IMG/VR virus record: IMGVR_UViG_3300029953_000012
Coordinates: 1 to 64,000 of that record
Origin: a virus
Direction: 5' to 3' (one strand)
Length of the DNA: 64,000 nucleotides
Part shown: positions 431 through 63,783 of the stretch, piece by piece
Numbering within the stretch: the first letter of the stretch is position 1
Layout: each line of letters starts with the position of its first letter
Translations under genes and position numbers: made by a program
Notes under the pieces: model-generated
Told to the model about the DNA's origin: nothing
Databases searched by the model: none
The model's input: the letters and a program-made list of their open reading frames with translations, nothing else

Positions 431-1546
431 ATGCAAAAAATAGCATTTGAACTACCGTTAAATTCCGTTTCATTTGGAGATGTAAGTATCTTAATTTTAA
501 GGACAATCTTTGAACAAGAAAGGATTAATGGCCAGAAATATGATATTTCTCTGTTTCCTATTGGTCATGTAGATTTTAGTGCTCAAACTCAAAACTTAGA
601 ATTCCAAAAATGGATTAATTCTAAAATCCAAAATGGACTTGAAAACCATTCTAAGGATACTAATATTTTCAAATTGTGGCATTTATCCAATGGAATTCAA
701 TCTTACTCAAAAAACCAGACTCTACTTTCATTCTATGAATTAGACGAGCCAACAAAGATTGAACTTAATGCCGCCAAAAATAACAAAACCCTCTTTTCGT
801 CCAAATATACCTGCGAAATTTTCCGACAATTTGGGGTGGAAACGGGTCATATAAATTTAGCGTTTGACTCTTACAATTTTAATCAAAAACTTAAAAAGAT
901 TCACTCTGACGGGAGAATCGTTTTTAATGTTTTGGGAAAATTCGAAAAGAGAAAAGGTCATGAAAAGGTTATTAAGGCTTGGATTCGTAAATACGGAAAT
1001 AATCCAAAATATGCACTCCAATGTGCTATCTTCAACCCATTTCTAGGGCGTACATCAGAAGAAATTAATAATAATAACCAACAAATAGCCTCCAGATTGG
1101 TTGATGGTAAAAAACCCTACAATGTATCTTTTTATCCTAAAATGCAAGAAACTAGCGTCTATAATGAGTTTCTAAATTCCTCTGATATAGTTTTAGGACT
1201 CTCAGGTGGTGAGGGGTGGGGTCTTGGTGAGTTTCAAAGCGTTGCATTAGGCAAACACGCCGTTTTATTAAAGGCTCACTCTTATAAAGACTGGGCAACT
1301 GACGAAATGGTAACTTGGGTAAATCCGAGTGGTAAAATACCCGCTTACGATGGATTATTCTTTCAAAAGGGTCAGTCTATTAATCAAGGTAATATCTTTA
1401 ACTTTAATGAGGAAGAGTTTTTGGCGGCATGTGATACTGCCGTTCGTAAAGTCGAAAATAATAGAGTCAACCAATCTGGTTTGACGCTTCAAACTACTTA
1501 TACTAAAGAAAAATTAGTGGATAATATAATTTCTCACTTAACTTAG
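431..1546 (+). CDS. Glycosyltransferase, GT-B/GT4-like
   Basis: GKFEKRKG motif and EGWGLGEFQSVALGK (E-x7-E-like) GT4 signature. Confidence 0.8.
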   Translation: MQKIAFELPLNSVSFGDVSILILRTIFEQERINGQKYDISLFPIGHVDFSAQTQNLEFQKWINSKIQNGLENHSKDTNIFKLWHLSNGIQSYSKNQTLLSFYELDEPTKIELNAAKNNKTLFSSKYTCEIFRQFGVETGHINLAFDSYNFNQKLKKIHSDGRIVFNVLGKFEKRKGHEKVIKAWIRKYGNNPKYALQCAIFNPFLGRTSEEINNNNQQIASRLVDGKKPYNVSFYPKMQETSVYNEFLNSSDIVLGLSGGEGWGLGEFQSVALGKHAVLLKAHSYKDWATDEMVTWVNPSGKIPAYDGLFFQKGQSINQGNIFNFNEEEFLAACDTAVRKVENNRVNQSGLTLQTTYTKEKLVDNIISHLT

Positions 1547-1547
1547 A

Positions 1548-2243
1548 ATGCTCCCAGAAATAACAACCCGCTCTTTTTCCAACGATTCTCAAATCTTTGA
1601 CGAGGTTTTTTTTGCTAATAAGTATAAAATCAAAGGAAACAAAGACCCAAATTCACCTCAAAAGGTGTTTTTAGACATCGGTGCTCACGCAGGATTTTTC
1701 TCTTTTTTAGCTTTAAACCTCAACGTTCGTGTGTATGCCTTTGAACCTTTTGTTGATAACTTTAACCTTCTTTTAAAGAATTGCTATAATCATAATTTCG
1801 CGGCAAACTTCACCCCCTATAACGTCGGCGTATATACCGAAAAACTACTTGGAAAGTTTAGTTCCCCCGAACTTATTGGTAATGCTTATCTGGATTTCGC
1901 ATATATCGGTTTATCGACTAATAGCCATAATAAAAGAGAATATCCATGTAACTGTGAAAGACTAGACGAAATATTAGCCACTTTTTGCTTCGGTGATAAA
2001 ATCGACGTGCTGAAAATTTCAATAGGATATTCTGAAAGAGAGATTTTAACAGGCTCACTACTTCTAAGAGACCAAGTTAACTCAATTTGCGGTGAGATAA
2101 CCGCTAATGATGTTCAGCTTTCTGAATTCAAAAAATCAATTGGAATTGCCGGTTTTGCGAGTTTTTTCTCTGAACCAGTGAAAAACGAACGTGTTGTATT
2201 TTGGGCATCTAAAACGAATTTGTCAGATAACTTTATAATATAA
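1548..2243 (+). CDS. FkbM-family SAM methyltransferase
   Basis: FLDIGAHAGFFS, VYAFEP, IDVLKI motifs. Confidence 0.85.
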   Translation: MLPEITTRSFSNDSQIFDEVFFANKYKIKGNKDPNSPQKVFLDIGAHAGFFSFLALNLNVRVYAFEPFVDNFNLLLKNCYNHNFAANFTPYNVGVYTEKLLGKFSSPELIGNAYLDFAYIGLSTNSHNKREYPCNCERLDEILATFCFGDKIDVLKISIGYSEREILTGSLLLRDQVNSICGEITANDVQLSEFKKSIGIAGFASFFSEPVKNERVVFWASKTNLSDNFII

Positions 2244-2244
2244 T

Positions 2245-2442
2245 ATGAACAAGATATTACTTTTATTATTAAGAAAATGGTGGAATCCTATTTCTATCAA
2301 AAGAATTGAAAGAACGAGTTGTTTTACAATACCAGTTTCTGATAAAAACATTATTAAAGACGCACAACAAAAAGTTTATTATATTAGAGATTTTGAAGAC
2401 TTTATGAAGACTTTAAAAATTTGTATTTCTTTCCAGAATTAG
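2245..2442 (+). CDS. Hypothetical protein
   Basis: 65-aa ORF starting 1 nt after the previous stop. Confidence 0.55.
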   Translation: MNKILLLLLRKWWNPISIKRIERTSCFTIPVSDKNIIKDAQQKVYYIRDFEDFMKTLKICISFQN

Positions 2443-2555
2443 CTTTAAAATTAATATTGGCTAATAAAAAAGAATTAGATATAGATATTAAAAATATAAA
2501 ATCTTATAAAGTAGAATCCTTTGAAGATGTTATTAAAGGAAGAAATTAAAAATTT

Positions 2556-2741
2556 ATGAACATTAAAATAACTGCCGAAACCACGGGCGATGAAATCTCC
2601 CAAACTATCGTAAATCAATTGGCTGCTAACCAACCTCCAATAACAGCCTCCGCTACTGATATTAAAGCTTTTGTCCTTAATAAGGATAATAAGTGGATTG
2701 AAGTAGATTATAATAAAGTTAAATTTGTATATAATAAGTAA
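2556..2741 (+). CDS. Hypothetical protein
   Basis: 61-aa ORF abutting the next start (TAAATG). Confidence 0.65.
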   Translation: MNIKITAETTGDEISQTIVNQLAANQPPITASATDIKAFVLNKDNKWIEVDYNKVKFVYNK

Positions 2742-3104: not shown

Positions 3105-3145
3105 AATAGTTTGAATTTTAGTCATAAATAAGCATCTAACTTTAA

Positions 3146-3904
3146 ATGACTAAACCACGCGTCTCTATAATTACATCTTTATATAAAAGTGAATCTTTTA
3201 TCGAGCACTTTCTTAATGATGTTGCGCGTCAGTCAATCTTTCCTGAGTGCGAAATTTTGCTTCTAAATGCTCAATCGCCGGAAAATGAGGAAAAATATAT
3301 TTTAGATTTTCAAAAAGTTTTCCCAAATAACGTTGTTTATAAAAAACTAGACAAAAGGTATTCTGTAAATGAAACTTGTAATATGGGTATAGATTTGGCA
3401 TCGTCTGATATTTTGACTATTTGGAATGTTGACGATAGAAGAGTTTTTAATTCTCTTGAATTTCAGGTTGATGAATTCGAAAAAGACCCTGCTCTTGATG
3501 TTTGTTATGGTCCGACCCTAACCACCAATATACCCAACGAATTAGTTGAAAATTGTACTTCTAATACTGGTTTTGGATGTTTTGATGCCACCTTAACTTC
3601 AATGCTGGAAAATAACTCCCCGCATTGTTTGCCAATGTGGAGAAAAGACCTTAATAAGCGTTTTGGTTATTTCAACACATCGTATACTATTGCGGCTGAC
3701 TACGAAATGTGGTTAAGGGCTTTAGTTGGTGGTGCCAAATTTAAAATGATAAAAAGACTTGTGGGTTCATATTATAGAAACCCAACGGGATTATCTTCTG
3801 ACCCACAGCACCTTGAAAGAGCTTGGAAAGAGATAACTGAGATTAGAAATATATACAAAAGTCCTATAGTACATCAAACTGATTTAAGAAACGAATTAGT
3901 ATGA
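3146..3904 (+). CDS. Glycosyltransferase family 2 (GT-A)
   Basis: VSIITSLYK, CNMGI, WNVDD (DxD-like), ADYEMWLR. Confidence 0.9.
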   Translation: MTKPRVSIITSLYKSESFIEHFLNDVARQSIFPECEILLLNAQSPENEEKYILDFQKVFPNNVVYKKLDKRYSVNETCNMGIDLASSDILTIWNVDDRRVFNSLEFQVDEFEKDPALDVCYGPTLTTNIPNELVENCTSNTGFGCFDATLTSMLENNSPHCLPMWRKDLNKRFGYFNTSYTIAADYEMWLRALVGGAKFKMIKRLVGSYYRNPTGLSSDPQHLERAWKEITEIRNIYKSPIVHQTDLRNELV

Positions 3905-4641
3905 ACAAAAAAGAGTTAATGTCGTGTATTTTGACTACCGCCTTTAAAAATAAAGAAGGGCATATTGCTAGTGCATTTTCAATTTTGGATTTTATGCTTA
4001 GTCTCTATAATGGTGTTATCACCAATGATGACGAATTTATCTTAAGTAAAGGACATTCCAGCCTAGCATTATACGCTATTATGTTGGCAAAAAAACAAAT
4101 TTCTATTGAAGATTTTTTTTTATTTTGTGAATTTGATTCTAAACTAGGAGGACATCCATCTTCTAAGAAACTACCTAATGTAAAAATATCAACAGGCTCA
4201 TTGGGTCATGGATTTCCATATGCTGTTGGAGTAGCAATGGCAAAAAAAATGAAAAAAGAAAAGGGTATCGTTTATTGTCTAATAGGAGATGGAGAAGCGA
4301 ACGAAGGAACTATTTGGGAATCCGCTTTATTGGCGGGTTCTCAAAAATTAGATAATTTAGTATGTGTTATGGATTTTAATGGTTCTGGGGAAAGAGCTAT
4401 TAAATTAGTTTCTTGTGTAGAGAAATTTAGGTCTTTTTTTTGGAATTCTATCGCGGTTGACGGCCATAAAGAATCAGAAATAAAAAATAGTCTTTTATTT
4501 AAAAGTAATATTCCAAAATTTATTGAACTAAGAACTATAAAAGGAAAAGGTTGTCCAATTATGGAAAATAATCCTGAATGGCATCACAAGCAGCCGTCAT
4601 CTGAACAAGAACTATCTACTCTAATAGAGTCGCTATACTAA
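3901..4641 (+). CDS. Transketolase, N-terminal (TPP-binding) subunit
   Basis: GHIASAFS, FILSKGH, STGSLGHG, GDGEANEG..WE, TIKGKG, WHH. Confidence 0.93.
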   Translation: MNKKELMSCILTTAFKNKEGHIASAFSILDFMLSLYNGVITNDDEFILSKGHSSLALYAIMLAKKQISIEDFFLFCEFDSKLGGHPSSKKLPNVKISTGSLGHGFPYAVGVAMAKKMKKEKGIVYCLIGDGEANEGTIWESALLAGSQKLDNLVCVMDFNGSGERAIKLVSCVEKFRSFFWNSIAVDGHKESEIKNSLLFKSNIPKFIELRTIKGKGCPIMENNPEWHHKQPSSEQELSTLIESLY

Positions 4642-5525
4642 TGAGAAAACAATTCTATAAACACTTATCTAATCTGTTTGTTTCAAATCCAAAGGTCGCT
4701 ATTATTTTGGGTGATATTGGAGTATTTTCTTTTCAAGGGTGCTTTTCTCATGATAGTAAGCGTATTTTTAATCTTGGGATTATGGAGCAGACCATGATTG
4801 GTGTTTCTAGTGCTCTATCCGCCAATGGATTTATACCATTTGTCCATTCCATTGCTCCATTTGTAACTGAACGTTGCTATGAACAGTTGAAATTGGATTT
4901 AGGATATGAAAGCCAAAATGTGTTTGTTGTAAGCGTCGGTAATTCATATGACTATTCTGCGCTTGGTTCTACTCATCATTGCCCAAATGATTTATTAATC
5001 ACTAGCGCCATTCCCAATTTTAAGACATTTTGCCCCGGAAATTCATTCGATGTAGAACAAATTATTGAAGAAAATTTAAACATCAGTCAACCAAAATATA
5101 TTAGATTATCTGAACAGGAAAATAATCTAGGTAGAAGAACGGAAGATTTGGAAATATTAGACAGTTGTTCTTTTAATGGTCTTGTTATTATTGTTGGAAA
5201 CGCAATTAAAGATATAAATAAATTTATTAAAAGCGATATTGATGCTTGTATATTGTACACTTATAATATATCGGATTTTAATATTGATAAATTAAATAAA
5301 ATTATTTTAGAATTGGCTGTTAGGAAAAATATCATAGTTGTAGAACCATCGGCTGATTCAGGTATTATAACTAAAATAAGCCTTGGCGTTAGAAATATTT
5401 CTAAGTTAAGTCATATTGGATTTCCAAAAATCTTTCTTGATAAGTATGGTTCTAAACAAGAATTAGACAGACACTTGGGACTAGACGACGAATCAATAAT
5501 CCAAAAAATCAAAAAAATATTATGA
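4641..5525 (+). CDS. Transketolase, C-terminal subunit
   Basis: RIFNLGIMEQTMIG, RCYEQ, GSTHH, YIRL. Confidence 0.92.
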   Translation: MRKQFYKHLSNLFVSNPKVAIILGDIGVFSFQGCFSHDSKRIFNLGIMEQTMIGVSSALSANGFIPFVHSIAPFVTERCYEQLKLDLGYESQNVFVVSVGNSYDYSALGSTHHCPNDLLITSAIPNFKTFCPGNSFDVEQIIEENLNISQPKYIRLSEQENNLGRRTEDLEILDSCSFNGLVIIVGNAIKDINKFIKSDIDACILYTYNISDFNIDKLNKIILELAVRKNIIVVEPSADSGIITKISLGVRNISKLSHIGFPKIFLDKYGSKQELDRHLGLDDESIIQKIKKIL

Positions 5526-6238
5526 ATATAAGCGCCTACATGTCCTCTGTCAAAACCTACAGATGGCTTCCCATTCATGAGCAGTTAAAAAAGACGGGTC
5601 TTTCATTTGAAATATCTGTTATTGGCCCTATTGAACCCGACTTCGCGTTACCGCCTGAAATAAAGTTTTTAAAGAGTGACGTAAAACCATCTCAATGTTT
5701 TCAAATTGCTGGTCAGAATTGTTCTGGCGAGGTGATGTTTCAATTAGTTGATGATTTAGAGTATTCGGACGGTGCTATTAAAAATATGTTTGAGGCTGTT
5801 ATTTCAGCAGATAACGTTATGTCAACCTCCCACCATTTTGAGGATTCAGCAGACCTGACTCTTCAACAAAATATCGCCGGTGTTTCAGCCAATCACCTTC
5901 CTCTTTTGCCTGTTTGCGGCATGTTTCCACGCAAGGCATGGTTGGACAATAGGGGTCTAGATGTAAGATTTGATGGTATAATGAGCGAACTCGACTTTTA
6001 TATGAGGCTATCAATTAATGGATATCAAACTCAATTTATAAATGGAATCGTAACAGAAATGTCATCTCACAGAAAATCTGATACTAATGGCCGTCTTAGT
6101 CATAGGTATTGGGAAAAAGACAGGGGTTCCTTTGTTAAATTATGGTCTAGTAATGGAAAATTATATCCAATTCGTAAAGATATTATGAGGCCATACAAAA
6201 ACGAAGATTTGTTAACAGTTAATCAATATTATGGATAA
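5522..6238 (+). CDS. Divergent GT2-like glycosyltransferase
   Basis: LVDD motif and GLDVRF....ELDFYMRL resemble the GT-A C-terminal motif; lies inside the glycan cluster. Confidence 0.6.
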   Translation: MNISAYMSSVKTYRWLPIHEQLKKTGLSFEISVIGPIEPDFALPPEIKFLKSDVKPSQCFQIAGQNCSGEVMFQLVDDLEYSDGAIKNMFEAVISADNVMSTSHHFEDSADLTLQQNIAGVSANHLPLLPVCGMFPRKAWLDNRGLDVRFDGIMSELDFYMRLSINGYQTQFINGIVTEMSSHRKSDTNGRLSHRYWEKDRGSFVKLWSSNGKLYPIRKDIMRPYKNEDLLTVNQYYG

Positions 6239-7169
6239 TTTTTTTAATGGAAAGAAAATCCTAATTACAGGAGCTACTGGAGTAGTTGGAGCCAACCTAT
6301 ATCTTGCTCTAAAAAATAGTGGCGCGATAATACATCTTAATCACCTTCATGATATAGATGAAAGATTATACACTGCTTTCGATGGATTTACTTCTATAAA
6401 ATTTGATATTTGTGATGTCAAGGCTATATCAAAACTTGATGAATACGATATTATTTTCCATTGTGCTGGGTATGGCCAGCCCCAAAAATTCATTAAAAAT
6501 CCAGAAAAAACTTTCTTACTTAATACTTCGTCGCTAGTGGCTTTAGCCAACAAAGTCAAAGTTGGAGGTTATTTTCTATTTATTAGCACTAGCGAAATTT
6601 ACATTAATAATACTACCACCGAAGAGGACGTGTTTATTAATATAAACCCAAATAACATTAGAAATTGTTATATACTTGGTAAATTGTGTGGTGAAAATCT
6701 TCTGGAATGGACATCAAAATCGCGGGGTATAAATTTCAAAAATATTAGGCTCTGTCTTGCTTTTGGACCTTATTTCCGCCGTTCTGATACTAGAGTATTA
6801 AACGAATTGATTTTTAAGGCGATTACCCATAAAAGAATCTCTCTTATTGATGATGGTTCGGCTATACGTCAATATATCTACGTAGACGATGCTATAAAAA
6901 TGATGTTAAATATCCTCATAAATGGCAAACAAAATACCTATAATATAGGTGGAAAAGAAGTGGTATCTATTTTGGATTTAGCAAAAATTATATCCAAAAA
7001 AATAAACTGTGAAATTATAGTCGGCAATTCTAAAAATAAATTAAAAAACAGTCCATCTTTCGCTGGAGTTTGTATAAAAAGATACGAGCAAGAATTTGGA
7101 GAAGTATCACTTACTAAAATTGAAGAAGGAATTGATAAATGTATCAATTGGGCTAATAAAATAATATGA
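6231..7169 (+). CDS. NAD-dependent epimerase/dehydratase (extended SDR, UDP-GlcA decarboxylase-like)
   Basis: ILITGATGVVG, ISTSEIY, catalytic YILGK (YxxxK), RQYIYVDD. Confidence 0.9.
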   Translation: MDNFFNGKKILITGATGVVGANLYLALKNSGAIIHLNHLHDIDERLYTAFDGFTSIKFDICDVKAISKLDEYDIIFHCAGYGQPQKFIKNPEKTFLLNTSSLVALANKVKVGGYFLFISTSEIYINNTTTEEDVFININPNNIRNCYILGKLCGENLLEWTSKSRGINFKNIRLCLAFGPYFRRSDTRVLNELIFKAITHKRISLIDDGSAIRQYIYVDDAIKMMLNILINGKQNTYNIGGKEVVSILDLAKIISKKINCEIIVGNSKNKLKNSPSFAGVCIKRYEQEFGEVSLTKIEEGIDKCINWANKII

Positions 7170-8077: not shown

Positions 8078-8544
8078 ACGACATTCAAGAATTTTCACTT
8101 TACTCTACCGAAGATTTTCGTGGAGAAATTTACACCATCTACAAAGATGGGTCTTTGCCGATTAAATTTAACCATGATAAGATTTGTATTAGATACAAGG
8201 ATGTTCTTGTTGGAATTCATGGAGACGCCAATACTTGGAAATTAATTAATTGTCTTTACGGTAGAGTTTTCTGTGTTTTGGTTGATAATCGCAAAGAGTC
8301 CAAAGATTACCTTAAGCATAAGACATATATTTTAAGTCACGAAAATAAAAAGCAACTCCTAATACCGCCGAATGTTGGTAATAGTTTCTTGGTTTTGTCT
8401 GACTTTTGTGTTTATAGTTATAAATTAAGTTATGTGGGCGAATATACTGACTGCGACAAACAATTTACTCTTCCATGGAATTCCTCAACTTTGAATATAA
8501 AATGGCCAATAACAAATCCTATTCTAAGCGAAAGAGATGCTTAA
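8062..8544 (+). CDS. rmlC: dTDP-4-dehydrorhamnose 3,5-epimerase family (RmlC cupin)
   Basis: DFRG, GIH, KLINC..G.V..V.VD.R..S, IPP.VG, WP..NPILSERD. Confidence 0.85.
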   Translation: MEASLNDIQEFSLYSTEDFRGEIYTIYKDGSLPIKFNHDKICIRYKDVLVGIHGDANTWKLINCLYGRVFCVLVDNRKESKDYLKHKTYILSHENKKQLLIPPNVGNSFLVLSDFCVYSYKLSYVGEYTDCDKQFTLPWNSSTLNIKWPITNPILSERDA

Positions 8545-8589
8545 ATAAATACTTTGGTTTAATTTACACATTTAACATATAATAAGTAT

Positions 8590-36163: not shown

Positions 36164-36166
36164 TAT

Positions 36167-37351: not shown

Positions 37352-37355
37352 ATAC

Positions 37356-37384
37356 TTGACTTTTTCCGAAAAGTGTTATATTCT
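37356..37384 (+). promoter_or_regulatory. Sigma70-type promoter
   Basis: TTGACT-17 nt-TATTCT. Confidence 0.55.
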
Positions 37385-37390
37385 TAATTC

Positions 37391-41225: not shown

Positions 41226-41226
41226 T

Positions 41227-54100: not shown

Positions 54101-57100
54101 TTGACGAGTCAGAAGTAGTTAAAGATGATAATTCGTTTTGTTTTCCACCTTTGTAAGTAGCCAAGGAAGCGGTTCTATAAGTTGACTCCGCGCCCGCCAC
54201 ACCAGATGCTAAATTGAAATTGGATATTAATGCACCTTTGGAAATAACATTTTGAAGTTCTTGGTTGTACTTTTGGCGGATTGCCATTTCTTGAATGTTA
54301 ATTTCATTAAGAGCCTTGATATGTCTATCCCATTCGTCAACTCCAACACCTTTTGGAATTTTAAATTTATTAATCTCGTAAGAAAGTTGTTTAAATAATT
54401 GAGCGGCAGATTGGGTTCCTAAATCTGTATAGATAGGATTTTTAACCGCTTCACTCATATAAGAACTTATGTCATTATCATTCAAAGCCCCTTTCTTCAT
54501 TCTGTCCGAAAACCCTTGAGGCATTAAATCAGAGTCCATAACCCTTTGACCAATTGCTACTGCTGCTTGACTTAATGTATTCTGTTTCTCTAATATGTCT
54601 GTCGGGTTTGTTCCTCCAAAAAGACCAGTATCAGTAGCAAAAATTCCACCCGCCCTAGACTCAGCGAAACTATGACCGGCAATAGAATTATTAGCCACCA
54701 TTTGGGCTAAATTCATTCGTATTTCAGTTTCGCTCTTGTCGGCGGATTGTGTGTTGATAGCCTGACTAAGAATATTCCTCTTTTCTTCCGATGTTCCTGC
54801 TCCTTCTAGTTTTTGAACGATTTCTGCACCGCCACCTTTTCCAGAGGCATCAGGATTTATTCCCGCTAAAGCTATTAGAGATTTGGAATACTTACTCTGA
54901 AGGGATTGGTATTCATCAAGGGTGACGGCTGTATCATTTGCTGCGGCTTTTAATTTATCAAAAGAATCAAGAACGTCATTACCCGCGCTTGATAGATTTT
55001 CAGCCCTCGTACTTGCCAAATCATAGGCTCTTTCAAAAGTCCCGAATTTAGAAGCAGTAATAGATAATGCATTTGACAAAGAATTTGCCGCTACTCCAGC
55101 GGCGGTGATTACTCCCAATTTATTTGGGAAAGTTAATAATAATTGACTAGCAGTTACTATTCCATTAGAAAACTCTTCTAAACCTTTTGAAGCATCAACG
55201 GCACCAAAGTTTTTTGAAAAACTAGCCGCCTGTTCTATTGCCATGGGCGCGGCAATCATACCATATATAGAACCGCTACTTATTTTTCCAGATATTCCAG
55301 AAACTCTTTGCCTATAGTTTTGGTATTCAGCATTTTGAGCAGCTTGAACGGTCGGGTCTTTTGAAAACGAACTGTTTTTAGATTTTATAGCATCAGCTAA
55401 TTTATCTACGTCATTATATTCTTGACCATTATATTTAGTAGAACCTTCAACTTGAATATTCTTTTGAAGAATGGCAAATTGTTCGTTAGTTTTTCTAATT
55501 AACTCGATTTGTTTTTCGTATCCGAAAGAAAGGGAGTTTAATATTCCTCCCATCTTATTTCCTAAAACACCCTGTAAAGAACCTAAAATTAAAGAATCGG
55601 TAATACCGAAATTCGGAACAAATCCACCTCCCATGTTTTTAACATCTGTTTGTCCAATTGTAGCGTGTTGATTTATTGCATCCTGTGGGCTATTCTGATA
55701 AGATTTATCATATACCATGGCTCCTAATGGATTGTTGGTGGAAACGGCTTCTGGAGAAAATCCGATAGTAGCAGAAGAAGAATTTTCTCTTATTAATGCT
55801 TTTCTAACGGCTTCTCGTTCGTAAAACCACTCTAAAATTTCTTTTCCTGCCAGTCTCTTATCCCCCACAACAATTTGTGCATTTGGATTTTTTGACATTG
55901 CAAGATAACTTGATAGTTCTATATCAGAACCCAATTTAGTAGTATATCTATATGCTCCATAATTTTGATTTTTTCTTTCTGCTGAAGCTTGCAATCCCCT
56001 TTTGTTGGCATAAACTCCCCTCTTAACAATATTTTGATTTTGGGTGTCCCAAATATGATATGGTTCGCTTGGGTCTGGCATTGCTGCATTTGGAACAGAA
56101 AAACCACCAGCAGGAGTTACCGATATATTTGCACCAATTTCTTTTCCAACAGCACTTACTATATTAGCTGAGAAAGCTTGATTAACATTTCCTTCATATA
56201 CCCTTTGCATTACTCCACTAGAAAGTTCTGTTAGAGCTTGTCTTTTTAATTGTACTCCTTTAGCTCCACCAATAGAATTAGCCTCATTAAGAAGGGCGAT
56301 ATATTTTTCCATCAATCCATTATTCTGAGAAAGAACTTGTCCAATTCCCTGTTGAATCATTTTCTGTTTTTCGGCTGGTTCGTTATAACCTAATTCAGTT
56401 TTTCCAGAAGCGATAGCGAACGCCCCGAATCCTTTTGTAATTTTAGCAATCAAAGCCGCTGCTATTTGAATACCGGGACCAGAAATAATATCTCCAAGAC
56501 CTTTCGCAAAACCTTGACCAATACTTTTACTAATCTTATCCCCCGTGTCGGATTTTTCAGTAATTGAATCTAGACTGTCTGCGATTTTTTGTATTTGACT
56601 ATTAAAAGAGTCTAACTGACTTTTTGCTCCACTACCCATACTTACATTTCCTAAAGACGAAACTAGTTTTGTGAATGTTAAAACTGTGGTATTAAGTTTG
56701 GAAGCGATAGTATCATTAAGAGATACCATACGTTGTTCGATAAGACCAGTTGATTGACCGGCAGCAATTACAGCCTTGTCGTAAATAGAAAATCCATGTC
56801 CCAAATCATTTAAAGAAGCCTTTAAAATGTTAACTTGATAAACACCACCAACAGCTTCTGTGACGAATGACTTTTGAGCATAATTAAGGTTATTGTATTG
56901 AGACGCGAGATTCTTTAAAATACTAATTAAAGGAAGAACTTGTCCTGCCGCATTTTTTGTTTGCACTCCAACGGCTTCCAAATCGTTTATAACTTCTGGT
57001 CTTCCTAACCTTGTAAAAATAGACTTGAAAGCGTTACCAATAACGGCACCACCACGAGCCGTAGCGGTCTGGACAGCGGTAACTAATCCCAATAATTGAT

Positions 57101-57785
57101 TAAACTGAACTCCAGCTTCTGTTGCAGTAGAACCGACACGACCAATGGCTTTTGCCAAGTCTTGTGCGCTAACAGCAAATTTAGTATCAACGGCGGTTAA
57201 TCTGCTAACAATATCATTAGCAGAAAGTCCTTCTTTACTAAAGGCGTTAATAGCCGCCGTAATTGCATTAACGGAATCAGCAGCGTCTAATCCTGAAATT
57301 CTCATTAACTGCATGGCTGCGGTCATACGATTAGCTGTCTCGGTAGCACTAACACCGTGACGAGCAAATTCCAACGCCACCTTACTAGCTGTTTGGAATG
57401 TCTGTCCAGTTTGTGCGGCGGCTTTAAACATATTAGCCGAAAACTGGTTAAGCCCGCTAGAACCAAGTTTTAAGATTGTATTTATATTTGCTAGACTCTG
57501 TTCAACCTCAATGGTAGAAGATACCATTTTTTTGAAGGCGTTATATACCAAATAAATACTTCCTGCTGATGCTCCGAAGGCTAACACACGAGCATTAGCG
57601 GCTGACATGGACTTTTGGAAATCTGAAGATTGGCCAGTTATCTTGCCCAATGGTTGCGAAGCCGCGTTCATCCCAGCACTAATATTCTGGGATAAACTTG
57701 CTCCTATCTTTTTTGCACTTGCATTAGCTGTAGCTTCATCAAAATGAGGCACAACCAACACGCCCAATTGCATTAAATCTGCCAT
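51147..57785 (-). CDS. Tail tape measure protein, 2212 aa
   Basis: TP901-type core (EFARHG, LTAVDTKFAVSAQDLA, GAVIGNAFKSIFTRL); long helical A/G/Q/K-rich body. Confidence 0.92.
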   Translation of the reverse strand: MADLMQLGVLVVPHFDEATANASAKKIGASLSQNISAGMNAASQPLGKITGQSSDFQKSMSAANARVLAFGASAGSIYLVYNAFKKMVSSTIEVEQSLANINTILKLGSSGLNQFSANMFKAAAQTGQTFQTASKVALEFARHGVSATETANRMTAAMQLMRISGLDAADSVNAITAAINAFSKEGLSANDIVSRLTAVDTKFAVSAQDLAKAIGRVGSTATEAGVQFNQLLGLVTAVQTATARGGAVIGNAFKSIFTRLGRPEVINDLEAVGVQTKNAAGQVLPLISILKNLASQYNNLNYAQKSFVTEAVGGVYQVNILKASLNDLGHGFSIYDKAVIAAGQSTGLIEQRMVSLNDTIASKLNTTVLTFTKLVSSLGNVSMGSGAKSQLDSFNSQIQKIADSLDSITEKSDTGDKISKSIGQGFAKGLGDIISGPGIQIAAALIAKITKGFGAFAIASGKTELGYNEPAEKQKMIQQGIGQVLSQNNGLMEKYIALLNEANSIGGAKGVQLKRQALTELSSGVMQRVYEGNVNQAFSANIVSAVGKEIGANISVTPAGGFSVPNAAMPDPSEPYHIWDTQNQNIVKRGVYANKRGLQASAERKNQNYGAYRYTTKLGSDIELSSYLAMSKNPNAQIVVGDKRLAGKEILEWFYEREAVRKALIRENSSSATIGFSPEAVSTNNPLGAMVYDKSYQNSPQDAINQHATIGQTDVKNMGGGFVPNFGITDSLILGSLQGVLGNKMGGILNSLSFGYEKQIELIRKTNEQFAILQKNIQVEGSTKYNGQEYNDVDKLADAIKSKNSSFSKDPTVQAAQNAEYQNYRQRVSGISGKISSGSIYGMIAAPMAIEQAASFSKNFGAVDASKGLEEFSNGIVTASQLLLTFPNKLGVITAAGVAANSLSNALSITASKFGTFERAYDLASTRAENLSSAGNDVLDSFDKLKAAANDTAVTLDEYQSLQSKYSKSLIALAGINPDASGKGGGAEIVQKLEGAGTSEEKRNILSQAINTQSADKSETEIRMNLAQMVANNSIAGHSFAESRAGGIFATDTGLFGGTNPTDILEKQNTLSQAAVAIGQRVMDSDLMPQGFSDRMKKGALNDNDISSYMSEAVKNPIYTDLGTQSAAQLFKQLSYEINKFKIPKGVGVDEWDRHIKALNEINIQEMAIRQKYNQELQNVISKGALISNFNLASGVAGAESTYRTASLATYKGGKQNELSSLTTSDSSTIQQRYALKIQDLNDQFQRDSSLNNIAGKKSISESLQKVTQEFIRPTLTNSTDASGLATLLPDKQRQNEYLASRLSEFSKNPQNILSGVTDKDSFIKNFLGAGATVGETGNEMFKPVQFSGLQSSLSSALSSKTEDIGNILLESKTIAEKNAEEQTKALYDLLAEIKTARFSELADGIKGIDELARGGARSARIELRRDEYTMTHSRSTIRRGEAARDLLNFIPSDERDYNNPQIRGLYDTAQAGSRAAYNYIYAGSGLQQFANSDERSFDRTFGKYKGVNTPSLDINSPIPGGQSGLDISPLDTSVKRASGDLDIFSHSLETLGTNFKTFQDLIQKSEDAKTAESNKYTPNGTDNSTPPPTPPPAKWYQTLGMNAIPSGGAMLSAGALILSIGAMFKGRGGGEATKELVTEFKGLKEAIINPKTAQAGESAIAAGEKAASKVAQEIKGNFGIPTLEKQSNFAINSNSKLAAPTGTAFSPIEDAKAELKTLASNKAIYEKRMQDAYDKILKVRQERMPEYIKQTYLGGQEKGLLPEHYDILAGQVNTSSLKGGKTALREYTRARNLLLGNSAREGVLNDRISTINSQESQKIGKSLKVEPLRYGSGTAYDTEIARRVSLRDSLAKNVSSTSSGVKEAFSLKFGSLADSLNPLSGWKNAGKLGKFARVGGTALGAVGVGFAAKESYDDFKQGHYSEGIGNMGLGLLGVSKSPLSYVAMAGRYLVDKNSERMQYGSQIETEEVRGKRLDDRMNFIKKYGDKYRTSTDEVFNQNYEHATGMHSKSARIEKALTDKDANNYFNQTKSNIFQNRILPEHTINRNGYLYGYKGGLGNQSYSALGKDSPELEAKYQKDREAQRQMIERNLTKSSAGLAYLKYNDDLASKSASSLTQKQFGNQTPQSILDKQNLTATKDNRQDELQKNQEGFKNLQTGAVDLMTAAKLMTAAAEILSKGLAPINITVTPNAAGILDLIKSVTSNQPLPAKVQ

Positions 57786-59865: not shown

Positions 59866-60777
59866 TTAAGCACCGTATGCAGGACCGAATCCAGTAATAT
59901 TGATACCAGTCTGAACATATCCACTGATAACTATATCAGTAAGGGTGGCAGAAACGTCTTCGGCGGAATAACTAAAGGACGCACTAACCTGACCAGCGGC
60001 GTTGCTGAACGAACGAGAATTAACCTTACCGTGAGGAAGGATGATGTTAATAGTTCCAATAGAAACACCTTGAGCCAAAACAGCATCAAGAATTGTTGGG
60101 TCAACGCCGTAACCTTCTACGGTCATACTTGTCTTGTAAGGAGCTTTAGTAGCGATAATGCTAATCAAATTACCCTGAGTAGCATTAGGGTTGTCACCCA
60201 AAGCGGAAAGATTTTCTGTTGGTAAATCATAGGAAAATTTAACAGATGTCGCAGCGACACCACTCAATAAGCCAGAACTTCCAACAGACATTGTAGTAAT
60301 AGGCGAAATAGCAAGAGGAGCAGCGCCAGCTACCAATCCAGTAGCTCCACTAGGCTGCACGATATAAGGATTACCAACACCAGCGAATCCAAGGTCAAAC
60401 ATACCAAGAGCACCCATTGAAATATCAAGACCCAAATTTGTAAGAACACCAGTCATTGAAAAACCATCAGGAGCCACGGTAATAACAATACCACCCGCAC
60501 CAGTGCCGGTTTGAGTAGCAGAAATTAAAGCGTTAATAACAGCAGCAGAAAGGGTTGTGATACCGGAACCTGAACCCAAATAACCCTTTAAACTAGATTT
60601 ACAAGTGGTTAATGCGGTTTGAGCTAAGTTTAATGAATTAAACGAACCGAATGAAGTAATAGCTTCAACCGGACGATTAACTTCGATGTTTGCGTGGTTG
60701 ATTGGGAGAACAACTGTTGTCCCACCATAAGTAAGACTACCACTTTGAGCGAAATATGCGATTCTATTTATTGCCAT
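59866..60777 (-). CDS. Probable major tail tube protein
   Basis: G/S/A/T-rich 303 aa, two-fold internal similarity, own promoter and strong terminator, upstream of the chaperones and tape measure. Confidence 0.65.
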   Translation of the reverse strand: MAINRIAYFAQSGSLTYGGTTVVLPINHANIEVNRPVEAITSFGSFNSLNLAQTALTTCKSSLKGYLGSGSGITTLSAAVINALISATQTGTGAGGIVITVAPDGFSMTGVLTNLGLDISMGALGMFDLGFAGVGNPYIVQPSGATGLVAGAAPLAISPITTMSVGSSGLLSGVAATSVKFSYDLPTENLSALGDNPNATQGNLISIIATKAPYKTSMTVEGYGVDPTILDAVLAQGVSIGTINIILPHGKVNSRSFSNAAGQVSASFSYSAEDVSATLTDIVISGYVQTGINITGFGPAYGA

Positions 60778-62344: not shown

Positions 62345-62345
62345 T

Positions 62346-62801
62346 TTAGATTTTGGGCTTGAGTTGGTACATTGTATAAGTACTTCCAAGAAAAATTCTA
62401 GCCTCGGAAATCCCCTCAAAAACAAAGTCTCTTCCATCAAAACTAAATTTATCAGTTATACCGCTTTCTATAAAAGCCTGAGCATCAGGTCTAACCTTTA
62501 TCCTCACTGCTCCTTCTGGTATAAAAACATTCGTTTCTTTTAATAGGTCGGCTTCACCTATTTTGGTTCTTTCATAATAACGAATAACTGCTGGATATAT
62601 ACCGCTGACAGGCGTATATTGATATTGTTGTTCTTCTGGTGCGTTTCCAAATCCGAACAGTCCAGATGGCTGTTGTGATGCGGGAATGGGTACTTTAATA
62701 GGTGTCTTCCATACCACGACATTTCTTGTAAAAGTTTGAAAGACATTATCGAATAAACCTGTAAGAATACCCTGTTCAGTTGATGTTACGAGACTTGACA
62801 T
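62346..62801 (-). CDS. Putative head-closure protein
   Basis: Size, position and beta-rich C-terminus. Confidence 0.45.
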   Translation of the reverse strand: MSSLVTSTEQGILTGLFDNVFQTFTRNVVVWKTPIKVPIPASQQPSGLFGFGNAPEEQQYQYTPVSGIYPAVIRYYERTKIGEADLLKETNVFIPEGAVRIKVRPDAQAFIESGITDKFSFDGRDFVFEGISEARIFLGSTYTMYQLKPKI

Positions 62802-62810
62802 ACGTTTTCC

Positions 62811-63338
62811 TTAAATCGGACCCGGCCTTATATACCCATTCCATTCTACTCCTTCAAAATGTCCCGGAATACAATCATCTGATGCAACCTGTTGAGGCTG
62901 ACCATGATATGAGCGATAAAAATGAATTTGCATTTGTAATTCTTGAAGTGTGTCTTTTTTAAGAGCGGTAAGTGTTTTTAACAATTCCGATTTATTAACT
63001 TTTTCAATACTGAATTCTTGGTCAGTAGCCTTTAAGACCGAGTCAGTTATGACAGAATTCAACATATTCCTGATGTCTAAATTCGCCTGATATACAAGGT
63101 ACATCAACTTAAAAATCGACGCCGCATTACGTCCTATATACTTAGGATTTCCATTGTTATCAAGGCAGTTTCCGTGTCTGATTTCTAGAGTGGTTGGTTC
63201 GACCCAGAAATCTTCGTAGAGTAACAGGTTTAATTTTGAAACATTAGCCCTCAGAAAAAACGCAATCGCCGCAATAGAAGTCGTCGTAGGCATTCCCTGC
63301 TCAATCCAAATTTCATTTGCTAAATCTACAATCTTCAT
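62811..63338 (-). CDS. Putative head-tail adaptor
   Basis: Helical 175 aa upstream of the closure gene; GTATAAATA upstream. Confidence 0.45.
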   Translation of the reverse strand: MKIVDLANEIWIEQGMPTTTSIAAIAFFLRANVSKLNLLLYEDFWVEPTTLEIRHGNCLDNNGNPKYIGRNAASIFKLMYLVYQANLDIRNMLNSVITDSVLKATDQEFSIEKVNKSELLKTLTALKKDTLQELQMQIHFYRSYHGQPQQVASDDCIPGHFEGVEWNGYIRPGPI

Positions 63339-63360
63339 ATATTTATACTAAATTAATTAT

Positions 63361-63783
63361 TTATTCGCTTATTCCACTACTACCGGATTGCCAACTATTA
63401 GCATATTCCCAAGCGTTACCATATTGCCCACTGGCACCCGACCAAATAGAGTATCCTAATCCCGGAGAAATAAAAACATAACCTTCACTAACGACATAAG
63501 AAAAACCGCTATTATTTACTGAAACGTTATATATTGCTTGAGTAACGGGTAGTTTTGCTGAACCAGAAGAGGTTAGGTTAACATACATCAGACCACTAAC
63601 AAAAGATGGGTCAATTGTAACATTTAATGGCATCAAAGATACATCAGAACCATAACCATAAAATATTTGACCTGTGGTATTATATCCCGATAAATTTATC
63701 ACATTTCCACTTTGGTCTGTGGCGATAACGGTTAGATTTAATGTCGTCCCCTGCTCTATTGAAATATCAAATGGATTTGCCAT
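63361..63783 (-). CDS. Small virion protein (BppU-N-like Ig fold)
   Basis: DISIEQGTTLNL....D..G..INLSGY...QI motif common in large-phage virion proteins. Confidence 0.6.
   Translation of the reverse strand: MANPFDISIEQGTTLNLTVIATDQSGNVINLSGYNTTGQIFYGYGSDVSLMPLNVTIDPSFVSGLMYVNLTSSGSAKLPVTQAIYNVSVNNSGFSYVVSEGYVFISPGLGYSIWSGASGQYGNAWEYANSWQSGSSGISE

What the first reader, a model, noticed from the sequence alone, without database searches (positions are those of the whole stretch)
431..63783. Candidate phage-encoded virion O-glycosylation system: large glycan toolkit plus [S/T]-G enrichment in outer structural proteins
Seen: about 13 glyco-genes (5 glycosyltransferase genes, 3 methyltransferases, Gmd, RmlC, an SDR, and two transketolase halves). 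Approximate hand counts of SG/TG dipeptides: ~43 in 686 aa (44675-46735, versus ~18 for reversed GS/GT); ~42 in 656 aa (39255-41225); ~13 in 303 aa (tail tube). Controls are lower: ~29 in 2212 aa for the internal tape measure and ~9 in 880 aa for DnaE. Established: some mycobacteriophages glycosylate capsid and tail proteins with their own GTs, giant viruses make their own nucleotide sugars, and Ser-Gly is the eukaryotic proteoglycan attachment motif. Inference: [S/T]-G acts as a sequon for a dense methylated glycan coat on the tail and baseplate. Restriction-site avoidance in this genome argues weakly against the sugars being used to shield DNA.
Basis: partly seen in the sequence, partly recalled or inferred. 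Interest (0 to 1): 0.8.

Follow-up and report, generated by a model that had tools for sequence, protein, structure and literature searches.

The report
Ser/Thr-Gly-rich phage fibres beside glycosyltransferases
An uncultured peat phage, like the large group of phages it belongs to, packs unusually many serine/threonine-glycine pairs into its fibre proteins and carries two virus-only sugar-transferase genes, which suggests but does not prove that the fibres are sugar-coated at those pairs.

Summary
After composition correction, 13 of 73 ORFs of this 100.2-kb phage carry about 2.4 times the expected [ST]G (SG 251 vs 104.9, TG 180 vs 76.6). Reversed G[ST] is about 1, all codons are used, and the 13 proteins are almost all non-paralogous.

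Seven other phages gave 1 of 246 ORFs and 0 of 25 fibre-like proteins at the same threshold. The E. coli Ag43 beta-helix scores 0.98.

The trait is clade-wide. A virus-exclusive GT9-derived protein (924 clusters) and a GT4-like partner form a conserved block in 75-80 of 80 IMG/VR loci. Convergent genes beside the block are enriched (70 of 240 ORFs; 0 of 544 upstream). All 5 whole contigs examined have enriched sets.

Orthologues show lineage-specific XG to [ST]G conversion. Sec-signal fibre-like proteins, the tape measure, the probable capsid protein and the tail-tube family are not enriched.

A cytoplasmic O-glycosylation sequon, analogous to AIDA-I/TibA heptosylation, is my best reading (about 0.4) but is unproven. 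A clade-specific structural turn motif remains a serious rival. The scan noted this same stretch before only in another window of this same genome, not on other DNA.

The parts
431..1546 (+). GT-B-like glycosyltransferase candidate (weak)
   Evidence: Pfam Glycos_transf_1 E 0.0044, below cut-off. Weak PDB hit to chlorovirus GT B736L, E 0.18. 45% identical homologues lie next to the GT pair in L044, L070 and L071.
1548..2243 (+). FkbM-family methyltransferase
   Evidence: Pfam PF05050 E 3.6e-9; TIGR01444 E 3.8e-15.
3146..3904 (+). GT2 glycosyltransferase
   Evidence: Pfam PF00535 E 5e-12.
3901..5525 (+). Split transketolase: N half 3901-4641, pyrimidine-binding/C half 4641-5525
   Evidence: PF00456 E 2e-30 and PF02779 E 2e-17; NF004559 E 2e-53 and 7e-15.
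6231..7169 (+). SDR sugar-nucleotide epimerase/reductase
   Evidence: PF01370 E 4.9e-36.
7166..8077 (+). Class-I methyltransferase (weak)
   Evidence: Methyltransf_25/12/31 at E about 1e-4, below cut-offs.
8062..8544 (+). RmlC-like 3,5-epimerase (cupin)
   Evidence: PF00908 E 1.6e-30; TIGR01221 E 2.4e-25, below the equivalog cut-off.
9141..10295 (+). GDP-mannose 4,6-dehydratase (Gmd)
   Evidence: PF16363 E 8e-101; TIGR01472 340 bits against a cut-off of 415.
23861..28621 (-). 1586-aa giant protein, strongly [ST]G-enriched
   Evidence: 77 observed vs 32.1 expected, z 9.4. No Pfam or PHROG hit. Orthologue in L007.
28630..33393 (-). 1587-aa giant protein, only mildly enriched
   Evidence: O/E 1.38, z 2.3. 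Orthologues in L006, L007, L008 and L014.
33498..34004 (+). Whirly-like ssDNA-binding protein candidate; first gene of the conserved block
   Evidence: PF08536 E 5e-4, below cut-off. Homologue in 72 of 80 loci.
34007..36163 (+). GT4/RfaG-like glycosyltransferase with DUF4214; clade core gene
   Evidence: PF00534 26.4 bits, at the cut-off, plus PF13946. Atlas neighbours are viral GT4 clusters. Homologue in 75 of 80 loci. No tblastn hit in 50,697 phage records.
36167..37351 (+). GT9-derived protein: donor-binding lobe at residues ~50-185 plus an unknown 200-aa C-terminal domain; clade core gene
   Evidence: PF01075 27.5 bits (cut-off 22). 44 of 48 family members hit it. The profile hits WaaF 1psw at E 3e-8 across the D-S-x-x-x-H motif. 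924 clusters. Only 1 hit in 185,579 prokaryote species genomes.
37391..38188 (+). 265-aa conserved unknown; last gene of the block
   Evidence: Homologue in 79 of 80 loci. No Pfam, PHROG or NCBIfam hit. The Atlas gives only viral unknowns.
39255..41309 (-). 684-aa fibre/baseplate-like protein, enriched
   Evidence: 42 vs 15.8, z 7.4. Enriched orthologues in L006, L007, L014 and L035.
41227..44655 (-). 1142-aa protein, enriched in this lineage only
   Evidence: 25 vs 13.5, z 3.5. L006 has 29 sites, 23 of them shared. The L007, L014 and L035 orthologues have 7, 6 and 5 sites.
44675..46735 (-). 686-aa fibre-like protein, enriched; exact late motif 26 nt upstream
   Evidence: 43 vs 18.3, z 6.9. 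GTGTAATTA at 46761.
46763..48409 (-). 548-aa protein, enriched
   Evidence: 20 vs 9.0, z 4.0. Late motif at 48428.
49374..51143 (-). 589-aa protein directly after the tape measure, enriched
   Evidence: 20 vs 8.8, z 4.2.
51147..57785 (-). Tape measure protein; internal, not enriched (control)
   Evidence: phrog_4211 E 4e-44. O/E 0.97.
59866..60777 (-). 303-aa candidate major tail protein; marginal only
   Evidence: O/E 1.58, z 2.1. 78 homologues pool to 1.06. Its identity as tail tube was not confirmed by any HMM.
63361..63783 (-). 140-aa protein, enriched
   Evidence: 10 vs 3.9, z 3.7. phrog_1084 E 2e-13.
63785..64000 (-). C-terminal end of a 390-aa fibre-like protein (gene runs to 64957, outside the window), enriched
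   Evidence: 21 vs 10.3, z 4.1. Homologues P0002-P0006 have O/E 1.6-2.9. Not a capsid protein.

Best explanation
WHAT IS THERE. [ST]G is a trans-selected motif in the cytoplasmically made fibre, baseplate and giant proteins of a large uncultured phage clade. The Ser or Thr sits just before a turn glycine, between apolar, uncharged flanks.

MOST LIKELY MECHANISM (inferred, not shown). The motif is the acceptor site for O-glycosylation by the clade's own virus-exclusive enzymes. The GT9-derived protein (36167-37351) binds a nucleotide sugar with its heptosyltransferase-like lobe and uses its novel C-terminal domain to dock on the fibre. The GT4-like protein (34007-36163) and the accessory GT2 and GT1-like enzymes extend the glycan. 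In this phage the left-end cluster (Gmd, RmlC-like epimerase, SDR, methyltransferases, split transketolase) supplies a methylated GDP-6-deoxy sugar.

CLOSEST WORKING ANALOGUE. Cytoplasmic heptosylation of Ser, including Ser-Gly, in the beta-helix of AIDA-I/TibA by Aah/TibC.

SHOWN HERE. The motif statistics, their specificity, the lineage-specific gains, and the clade-wide co-occurrence with the GT genes.

INFERRED. Catalysis, the acceptor, the sugar, and any benefit such as shielding or stabilising the fibres.
For: 1. Enrichment is specific to both hydroxyl residues (SG 2.39x, TG 2.35x). It is directional (G[ST] about 0.9-1.0). It is independent of codon choice and absent from the phage's other proteins (SG 1.18, TG 1.02).
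2. It occurs in many unrelated proteins. The 13 own proteins are almost all non-paralogous. The 87 enriched proteins across the clade fall into 23 BLAST families.
3. It is not a generic fibre or beta-helix property. In 7 other phages, 1 of 246 ORFs and 0 of 25 fibre-like ORFs reach z >= 3.5. T4 gp34 is 1.01, gp37 1.13, lambda J 0.90. The Ag43 passenger is 0.98 and uses NG and GG instead.
4. Lineage-specific gain. In the 1142-aa orthologue family this phage has 25 sites and L006 has 29, but L007 (56% identical) has 7. L007 shows NG, IG, GG, DG, EG, VG, AG or YG at this phage's sites: the glycine is kept and the residue before it is converted. Ser/Thr before Gly is more conserved than other Ser/Thr (0.91 vs 0.73 against L006).
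5. Clade-wide co-occurrence. The GT4-like/GT9-like/265-aa block is in 75, 80 and 79 of 80 loci. Beside it, 70 of 240 convergent ORFs are enriched against 0 of 544 upstream. 22 of 29 dereplicated lineages show enrichment within 10 kb. The two complete genomes with nothing near the block have enriched sets elsewhere, giving 5 of 5 whole contigs.
6. The GT9-derived family keeps the donor-binding motif (D107 and H112 nearly invariant). 44 of 48 members hit PF01075. It is virus-exclusive.
7. Compartment. 0 of 27 enriched fibre-like proteins have a signal-peptide-like N-terminus, against 6 of 26 non-enriched ones. No glyco gene has a transmembrane segment.
8. Precedent. TibC heptosylates TibA Ser-313, which is followed by Gly, and its catalytic domain resembles heptosyltransferase WaaC (PMC4358343, passages).
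9. A DNA target is disfavoured. GATC occurs 0 times against 237 expected and many 6-bp palindromes are absent. No thymidylate-synthase-like or hydroxymethylase hit appeared in the ORFs scanned.
10. 8 of 8 clade contigs searched carry sugar-nucleotide SDR genes.
Against: - No experiment or structure links any [ST]G to a glycan.
- The co-occurrence is confined to one clade, so the counts are not phylogenetically independent. No relative lacking the GT pair was available for comparison.
- In some members the large fibre next to the GT pair is not enriched: L059 2699 aa at O/E 0.87, L023 1164 aa at 1.34. In G003 one 1496-aa protein is depleted (0.42).
- The GT operon lies at the end of the replication module, between an SSB-like gene and a possibly recombination-related gene. 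It lacks the late motif that precedes structural genes.
- In at least one family ([ST]G every 7 residues in the 2887-aa L011 protein) the motif is plainly part of a structural repeat.
- Some fibres of unrelated phages reach O/E 1.8-1.9: T5 pb4 at z 3.1, a P-SS2 fibre at z 3.0.
- The probable capsid protein (0.76; 120 homologues 0.80) and the tail-tube family (1.06) are not enriched.
- TibC modifies Ser but not Thr.
- Only about 130 residues of the 394-aa protein resemble GT9, and its C-terminal half matches nothing.
Confidence: 0.4

Rival explanations
1. Structural motif only. [ST]G is the preferred corner or turn of the beta-solenoid and beta-sandwich architecture used by this clade's fibres, for example Ser/Thr capping before a left-handed Gly. 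The glycosyltransferases serve another purpose.
For: - Strict 7-residue periodicity of [ST]G in the L011-type giants: 122 spacings of exactly 7.
- Apolar flanks with I, V, P or L at -1 and depletion of K, R, D and E, as expected for strand ends.
- The glycine is retained in orthologues that lack the Ser/Thr.
- Milder excess in some fibres of unrelated phages, up to O/E 1.87.
- Sites are spread evenly along whole proteins.
- The GT pair is retained beside non-enriched fibres.
Against: - Orthologues of the same fold tolerate N, D, E, G, A, I, V or Y before the glycine, so the fold does not need Ser/Thr.
- Canonical beta-helices and fibres use NG and GG, or show no bias.
- 23 unrelated families share the bias.
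- Sec-exported fibre-like proteins of the same genomes lack it.
- In this phage's own proteins periodicity is weak.
Confidence: 0.33
2. The glycosyltransferases and sugar genes remodel the infected cell's envelope (LPS core, O-antigen or capsule), for example to stop superinfection or to stop progeny being lost on debris. The [ST]G bias is unrelated.
For: - The nearest named relatives are LPS-core enzymes: RfaQ/RfaF-type heptosyltransferases and an 'RfaG' viral cluster.
- Gmd, RmlC-like, SDR, GT2 and methyltransferases are typical O-antigen/capsule genes.
- The operon is not late.
Against: - No flippase, polymerase, initiating transferase or any membrane protein lies among the glyco genes.
- The GT9-derived family is absent from prokaryote genomes, with 1 hit in 185,579 species, and has lost the acceptor lobe of LPS heptosyltransferases.
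- This reading does not explain the motif.
Confidence: 0.12
3. The GT pair glycosylates phage DNA, as T4 does. Its position in the replication module reflects that role, and the [ST]G bias is unrelated.
For: - The block follows DnaB, primase, nuclease, PHP and the 880-aa polymerase-like gene, and starts with an SSB-like gene.
- Phage GTs are often DNA-modifying (PMC12619734, passages).
Against: - Extreme avoidance of restriction sites (GATC 0 vs 237; ACCGGT and TCCGGA 0 vs about 14) implies the DNA is exposed to restriction.
- No hydroxymethylase or thymidylate-synthase homologue was found in the ORFs scanned. Not every small ORF was scanned.
Confidence: 0.08

Closest known systems
Autotransporter heptosyltransferases (BAHT: Aah, TibC) acting on AIDA-I/TibA
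   Same: - A heptosyltransferase-like (WaaC-like) enzyme hyper-glycosylates Ser in the turns of a repetitive beta-helical fibre.
- One mapped site is Ser-Gly (PMC4358343, passages). That this happens in the cytoplasm is recalled; a search of the paper for 'cytoplasm' found no occurrence.
- Here a GT9-derived gene sits beside [ST]G-rich fibre genes.
   Different: - There is no detectable sequence relation to TibC: no PDB hit other than WaaF and a GT9 entry.
- Only the donor lobe is recognisable, and the C-terminal domain is different.
- Thr is as enriched as Ser, whereas TibC modified Ser only.
- The setting is viral rather than bacterial.
- Ag43, a BAHT-type substrate scaffold, shows no [ST]G excess.
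Mycobacteriophage virion glycosylation (Che8 type)
   Same: Phage-encoded glycosyltransferases modify the phage's own structural proteins. I saw this only as cited in PMC12619734 passages. The primary paper, PMC10527164, is not held.
   Different: - There the glycans sit on the C-termini of the capsid and tail-tube subunits. Here the probable capsid and tail-tube families are not enriched, and the sites are spread along fibres.
- Che8 structural ORFs show no [ST]G excess: 0 of 24 ORFs.
- No homologue of the 718-aa GT exists in any cultured phage record.
Chlorovirus and giant-virus capsid or fibril glycosylation with virus-made sugars (recalled; no call)
   Same: The virus encodes Gmd, glycosyltransferases and methyltransferases, and builds methylated 6-deoxy-sugar glycans on structural proteins with a non-canonical sequon. 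GT 431-1546 has a weak hit to chlorovirus GT B736L (E 0.18).
   Different: Those are eukaryotic viruses with N-linked glycans on the capsid protein. The similarity here is weak and the acceptor is not established.
LPS-core glycosyltransferases: GT9 WaaC/WaaF/RfaQ and GT4 RfaG
   Same: These are the best sequence relatives of the two core enzymes. The donor-binding motif aligns with WaaF 1psw.
   Different: The N-terminal acceptor lobe is missing or replaced. The family is virus-exclusive. No lipid-linked pathway genes are present.
T4-type DNA glucosylation
   Same: Phage GT-B enzymes encoded among early or replication genes.
   Different: No hydroxymethyl-pyrimidine pathway was found, and restriction sites are strongly avoided.

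Membership tests
Glycosyltransferase family 9 (Pfam PF01075, heptosyltransferases) | HMM match above the curated cut-off | tested here: met
   27.5 bits against a cut-off of 22 for 36167-37351. 44 of 48 family members match, best E 7.6e-17.
Glycosyltransferase family 9 (Pfam PF01075, heptosyltransferases) | Conserved nucleotide-sugar-binding motif of the C-terminal lobe (D-S/T-G-x-x-H) | tested here: met
   The family consensus keeps D-S-F-x-x-H, with D107 and H112 at 90% or more. It aligns to WaaF 1psw residues 240-340 at E 3e-8.
Glycosyltransferase family 9 (Pfam PF01075, heptosyltransferases) | Complete two-lobe GT-B architecture with an N-terminal acceptor lobe | tested here: not met
   Only model positions 135-213 of 247 match, at protein residues 50-129. 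The GT9-like part lies in the N-terminal half. The C-terminal 200 aa give no PDB sequence match at E <= 5.
Glycosyltransferase family 9 (Pfam PF01075, heptosyltransferases) | Heptosyl transfer from ADP-heptose | not testable with these tools
   Needs an enzyme assay.
BAHT protein O-heptosyltransferases (TibC/Aah) | [quoted passage not shown] | tested here: not met
   The profile search of all PDB chains at E <= 1 returned WaaF, a GT9 entry, NDH subunits and cadherin-related chains. No TibC-named chain was listed.
BAHT protein O-heptosyltransferases (TibC/Aah) | Acceptor is Ser in the turns of a repetitive beta-helix | tested here: inconclusive
   [ST]G lies at repeat corners in the L011-type fibres and in apolar strand-end contexts. 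No modification data exist.
GDP-6-deoxyhexose pathway (Gmd + epimerase + reductase) | Gmd, a 3,5-epimerase and a 4-reductase are encoded | tested here: met
   PF16363 338 bits; PF00908 106 bits; PF01370 125 bits. All three are below NCBIfam equivalog cut-offs, so the exact sugar is unknown.
Phage virion glycosylation of the mycobacteriophage type | Glycans on C-termini of capsid and tail-tube subunits | tested here: inconclusive
   The probable capsid family has O/E 0.80 and the tail-tube family 1.06, so these proteins do not carry the [ST]G signature. C-terminal glycan tails were not examined.
T4-type DNA glycosylation | A hydroxymethyl-pyrimidine (or other modifiable base) pathway encoded with the GT | tested here: not met
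   No thymidylate-synthase-like or hydroxymethylase Pfam hit in the ORFs scanned. GATC 0 vs 237.

The most novel reading that the evidence does not exclude
A widespread, entirely uncultured clade of tailed phages from peat, freshwater and other metagenomes hyper-O-glycosylates its fibres at a simple two-residue sequon, [ST]G. One 2887-aa fibre carries up to 325 such sites. The enzyme is a virus-only, rearranged GT9-type protein with a novel protein-docking domain. This would be the first sequon-defined protein glycosylation system of tailed phages, and it would be readable directly from sequence.
Probability: 0.35. Interest if true: 0.85.

Novelty: new variant of a known kind. Interest (0 to 1): 0.68.

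Why it matters
Virion glycosylation by tailed phages is known only from a few actinobacteriophages, and no sequon has been described for it.

Here a strong and specific sequence signature is tied to a conserved, virus-exclusive glycosyltransferase pair across hundreds of metagenomic phages:
- 48% of all glycines in the affected proteins follow Ser or Thr.
- 23 unrelated protein families share the bias.
- Orthologues show lineage-specific conversion of XG to [ST]G.

If the link is causal, phage glycoproteins could be predicted from sequence. The function of a 924-cluster orphan enzyme family would be explained. A cheap test follows directly: co-express one fibre with two genes and weigh the product.

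If the link is not causal, the motif still marks an unrecognised fibre architecture, and the glycosyltransferase pair remains an unexplained core function of an abundant phage group.

Tried and rejected
REJECTED EXPLANATIONS FOR THE MOTIF
- Composition artefact. Rejected by per-protein shuffles and by Ser/Thr/Gly-rich proteins that show no excess: tape measure 0.97, and 86808-98013 at 1.0-1.28.
- DNA-level or codon-pair cause. Rejected: all Ser/Thr/Gly codons take part, and other NNT-GGN pairs (NG, IG, YG, VG, AG) are depleted.
- Paralogy. Rejected: all-vs-all blastp found only one pair among the 13 with extended similarity, plus a shared 21-aa N-terminus in another pair.
- Generic beta-turn or beta-helix preference. 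Rejected by the control phages and by Ag43.
- Avoidance of deamidation-prone NG or DG. Not supported: NG (0.61) is no more depleted than other XG, and DG is 0.98.
- N-glycosylation sequon. Not supported: Asn is not enriched at -2.

SEARCHES THAT GAVE NOTHING
- Cultured relatives: megablast of two window stretches, and tblastn of the 390-aa, 622-aa, 750-aa and 718-aa proteins, gave no match. TerL reached only 23.5% identity.
- IMG/VR search with the 390-aa protein gave nothing. The search with PhoH gave 7 loci, none with an enriched ORF.
- PDB sequence searches gave nothing useful for the two GTs as single sequences, the 396-, 533-, 238- and 184-aa proteins, and the GT9-like C-terminal domain.
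- The sigma-70 promoter scan of the GT operon was no better than shuffles: 22 sites found against a shuffle mean of 19.3.
- No RNA holder was listed among 24 peat metagenome runs.

LITERATURE
- Three full-text searches listed no paper on an [ST]G signature or on glycosylated fibres of such phages.
- Supplementary files were not consulted.

CORRECTION TO MY NOTEBOOK
- The notebook says 53 of 80 loci. The recount is 52 of 80.

Full report
WHAT THE DNA IS
The window is the first 64 kb of a single 100,200-bp phage contig with 36% G+C. It has no tRNA gene and no close relative among 50,697 deposited phage records. TerL reaches only 23.5% identity. Near-identical DNA occurs in peat metagenomes of 2019-2020: 24 runs were listed, 9 of them possible sources.

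Genes recognised:
- a left-end sugar cluster at 431-10295;
- two giant genes on the minus strand, 23861-33393;
- a plus-strand block made of a Whirly-like gene, a GT4-like gene, a GT9-like gene and a 265-aa gene, at 33498-38188;
- the tail genes, convergent on the minus strand, with the tape measure at 51147-57785.
Beyond the window lie the portal, TerL, a sigma factor, PhoH and fibre-like enzymes.

CHECKING THE OBSERVATION
I compared each ORF with 1000 shuffles of itself. 13 of 73 ORFs of at least 100 aa have z >= 3.5, and 8 of these start in the window.
- Pooled over the 13 proteins (8384 aa), SG is 251 against 104.9 expected and TG is 180 against 76.6.
- These are by far the two most deviant of all dipeptides.
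- Every other XG is at or below expectation (0.36-0.99, DG and MG about 1). GS is 0.87 and GT 1.02.
- 48% of all glycines follow Ser or Thr.
- The remaining 23,695 aa of the proteome give SG 1.18 and TG 1.02.
- All Ser, Thr and Gly codons contribute, so the signal is at the protein level.
- The 13 proteins are essentially unrelated by BLAST.
The 303-aa candidate tail tube reaches only z 2.1, and its 78 homologues pool to 1.06.

Of the glyco-genes, four glycosyltransferases have HMM support (one of them weak). Three methyltransferases do too, though one is weak and one lies in the replication module. Gmd, an RmlC-like epimerase, an SDR and the two transketolase halves are also supported. I found no fifth glycosyltransferase.

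IS IT A GENERIC PROPERTY OF FIBRES?
No.
- I analysed 246 ORFs of at least 150 aa from fetched parts of lambda, T4, T5, Cellulophaga phage phi38:1 (whole genome), Che8, crAss001 and P-SS2. One reaches z >= 3.5, and it is a truncated T5 polymerase ORF.
- None of 25 ORFs with fibre-like composition reaches that threshold. The pooled O/E is 1.16.
- T4 gp34, gp37 and gp12 are 1.01, 1.13 and 0.57. Lambda J is 0.90.
- Two control fibres come moderately close: T5 pb4 at 1.87 (z 3.1) and a P-SS2 fibre at 1.84 (z 3.0). A mild structural tendency therefore exists.
- The Ag43 passenger, a textbook beta-helix, has [ST]G at 0.98 and favours NG (18 vs 9) and GG (25 vs 16.7).
- Within the phage itself, fibre-like Ser/Thr/Gly-rich proteins at 86808-98013 are not enriched.

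THE CLADE
The 394-aa GT9-like protein has 924 representative relatives, almost all about 390 aa long. All ten clusters sampled are metagenomic and unnamed.
- 44 of 48 aligned members hit Pfam GT9.
- The family profile aligns to WaaF (1psw, E 3e-8) over the donor-binding motif.
- Only the N-terminal half is GT9-like. The C-terminal 200 aa match nothing in the PDB by sequence.
- In 185,579 prokaryote species genomes there is one hit, on a 25-kb MAG contig.
- IMG/VR has 284 contigs with a relative, and I fetched 80 loci.

Findings in those 80 loci:
- The Whirly-like, GT4-like, GT9-like and 265-aa genes recur in 72, 75, 80 and 79 loci. They are usually preceded by the same replication genes.
- 52 of 80 loci hold at least one enriched ORF, 74 of 1096 ORFs in all.
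- By position, 0 of 544 upstream ORFs are enriched, 70 of 240 convergent downstream ORFs, and 4 of 231 downstream plus-strand ORFs.
- Some z-scores are very high. A 2887-aa protein has 325 sites against 128.5 expected (z 22).
- Dereplicated at 70% identity of the GT9-like protein, 22 of 29 lineages are positive.
- With this phage's own 13, the 87 enriched proteins form 23 BLAST families.

Two complete genomes had shown nothing near the block, so I read them whole. G005 (209 kb) has 5 enriched ORFs (z 5.2-8.8). G006 (178 kb) has 5 (z 3.7-5.6). G001 has 11 and G003 has 3. With this phage, 5 of 5 whole contigs carry enriched sets, against 0 of 7 control phages with an enriched structural ORF. The nominal Fisher p is 0.0013, but the five are related, so the count is not independent. 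8 of 8 clade contigs searched carry one to five sugar-nucleotide SDR genes. The particular left-end cluster of this phage is accessory.

STRUCTURE OR SEQUON?
For structure:
- In the L011-type giants [ST]G recurs every 7 residues, in a unit with I or V before the Ser/Thr.
- Across the clade the flanks are apolar and poor in charged residues.

Against a purely structural cause:
- In the 1142-aa orthologue family this phage has 25 sites and L006 has 29, with 23 shared. The orthologues in L007 (56% identical), L014 and L035 have 7, 6 and 5. At this phage's sites L007 shows NG, IG, GG, DG, EG, VG, AG or YG. The turn glycine is old, and the Ser/Thr in front of it was installed in one lineage.
- Ser/Thr before Gly is conserved as a hydroxyl residue in 91% of sites against L006, compared with 73% for other Ser/Thr.
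- Only some fibre-like proteins of a genome carry the bias. All 6 with a signal-peptide-like N-terminus belong to the 26 non-enriched ones, and none to the 27 enriched ones (p 0.01).
- The tape measure (0.97), the portal (1.46, not significant), the probable capsid protein (0.76; 120 homologues 0.80) and TerL (0.51) are not enriched.
Together this looks like a trans-acting pressure on proteins that fold in the cytoplasm and end up on the outside of the tail.

WHAT THE GLYCOSYLTRANSFERASES MIGHT DO
- None of the glyco genes has a membrane segment, and no flippase, polymerase or initiating transferase was found.
- The DNA avoids restriction sites to an extreme degree. GATC occurs 0 times against 237 expected, and ten 6-bp palindromes with 5.8-14.5 expected occurrences are nearly all absent.
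- No hydroxymethylase-type enzyme was found in the ORFs scanned.
- These points argue against lipid-linked and DNA acceptors, and leave a soluble protein acceptor as the simplest option.
- A working precedent exists. TibC, whose catalytic domain resembles heptosyltransferase WaaC, heptosylates TibA at Ser-313, which is followed by Gly, and at Ser-322 (PMC4358343, passages).

Counter-evidence:
- The GT operon closes the replication module.
- It lacks the exact late motif that precedes the 686-aa, 548-aa, tape measure, 390-aa, 533-aa, portal and PhoH genes. That motif also precedes the ORF before DnaB.
- Some relatives keep the pair beside a non-enriched giant: L059, 2699 aa, O/E 0.87.

VERDICT
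It is a clade-wide signature coupled to a virus-exclusive GT pair. The glycosylation reading is the best single explanation (about 0.4) but rests on association and analogy. A clade-specific structural motif, with the GTs serving another role, is nearly as likely (about 0.33). Membership in GT9 holds only for the donor lobe. Membership in the BAHT family is not met. If the mechanism holds, this is a new variant of known kinds: phage virion glycosylation and heptosyltransferase-like protein O-glycosylation.

The earlier scan notes I used concern this same genome. One is the same stretch read in another window.

Noticed in passing
L001:785-1957 (genome 63785-64957) and L001:14884-17136 (genome 77884-80136): The 390-aa and 750-aa fibre-like proteins share an 86% identical 21-residue N-terminus containing IRLKQLNQ. 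The same start recurs in metagenomic homologues P0002-P0005 and in two G001 fibres. It is probably a common virion-attachment adaptor carrying different distal parts.
   Followed up: partly
whole genome; e.g. window-wide: GATC is completely absent (0 vs 237 expected). ACCGGT, TCCGGA, CCCGGG, GACGTC, CCGCGG, AGGCCT, CAGCTG, GGCGCC and CTGCAG are also absent. TCCGGA and ACCGGT would encode Ser-Gly and Thr-Gly, yet they are avoided despite the [ST]G excess.
   Followed up: partly
window 12650-15127: The DnaB-like helicase is interrupted by a LAGLIDADG/Hom_end segment at residues ~400-480, as an intein would be. LAGLIDADG domains also occur in 20121-20942 and in the 572-aa ORF at genome 65373-67091, whose C-terminal part matches PHROG 'homing endonuclease' families.
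   Followed up: no
window 23861-33393: Two adjacent giant genes of 1586 and 1587 aa show no detectable mutual similarity and no family hit. They are conserved in L006, L007, L008 and L014. Only the first is strongly [ST]G-enriched.
   Followed up: partly
genome 86808-98013 (L002): Four fibre-like proteins, one with a GDSL esterase domain and one with DUF4838, have signal-peptide-like N-termini and no [ST]G excess.
   Followed up: partly
genome 67183-68373 (L001:4183-5373): This 396-aa protein has more than 3000 relatives at E <= 0.001, and the 120 listed are 65-88% identical over full length. It is probably the major capsid protein of an abundant metagenomic phage group. A few relatives carry PF25209, which I could not look up.
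   Followed up: partly
window 3901-5525: A split transketolase sits inside a sugar-nucleotide cluster. It may feed sedoheptulose-7-phosphate or pentose-phosphate supply, or build a branched sugar. This is unresolved.
   Followed up: no
L099 (MAG contig CBFHLR010000041.1): The only prokaryote-genome hit of the GT9-derived family lies on a 25.5-kb contig binned as Coraliomargarita sp.. It could be a host hint or a binning artefact. No enriched ORF lies in the 14 kb held.
   Followed up: no
G003 (contig of L042), ORF at 85407, 1496 aa: This fibre-like protein is significantly depleted in [ST]G (O/E 0.42, z -3.0), in a genome whose three neighbouring fibres are strongly enriched.
   Followed up: no
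window 12298, 46761, 48428, 57823; genome 64974, 70642, 77864, 86781: Exact GTGTAATTA lies 8-44 nt upstream of gene starts. Most of these are structural genes, but the set also includes the ORF before DnaB and PhoH. The motif is absent before both glyco operons.
   Followed up: partly
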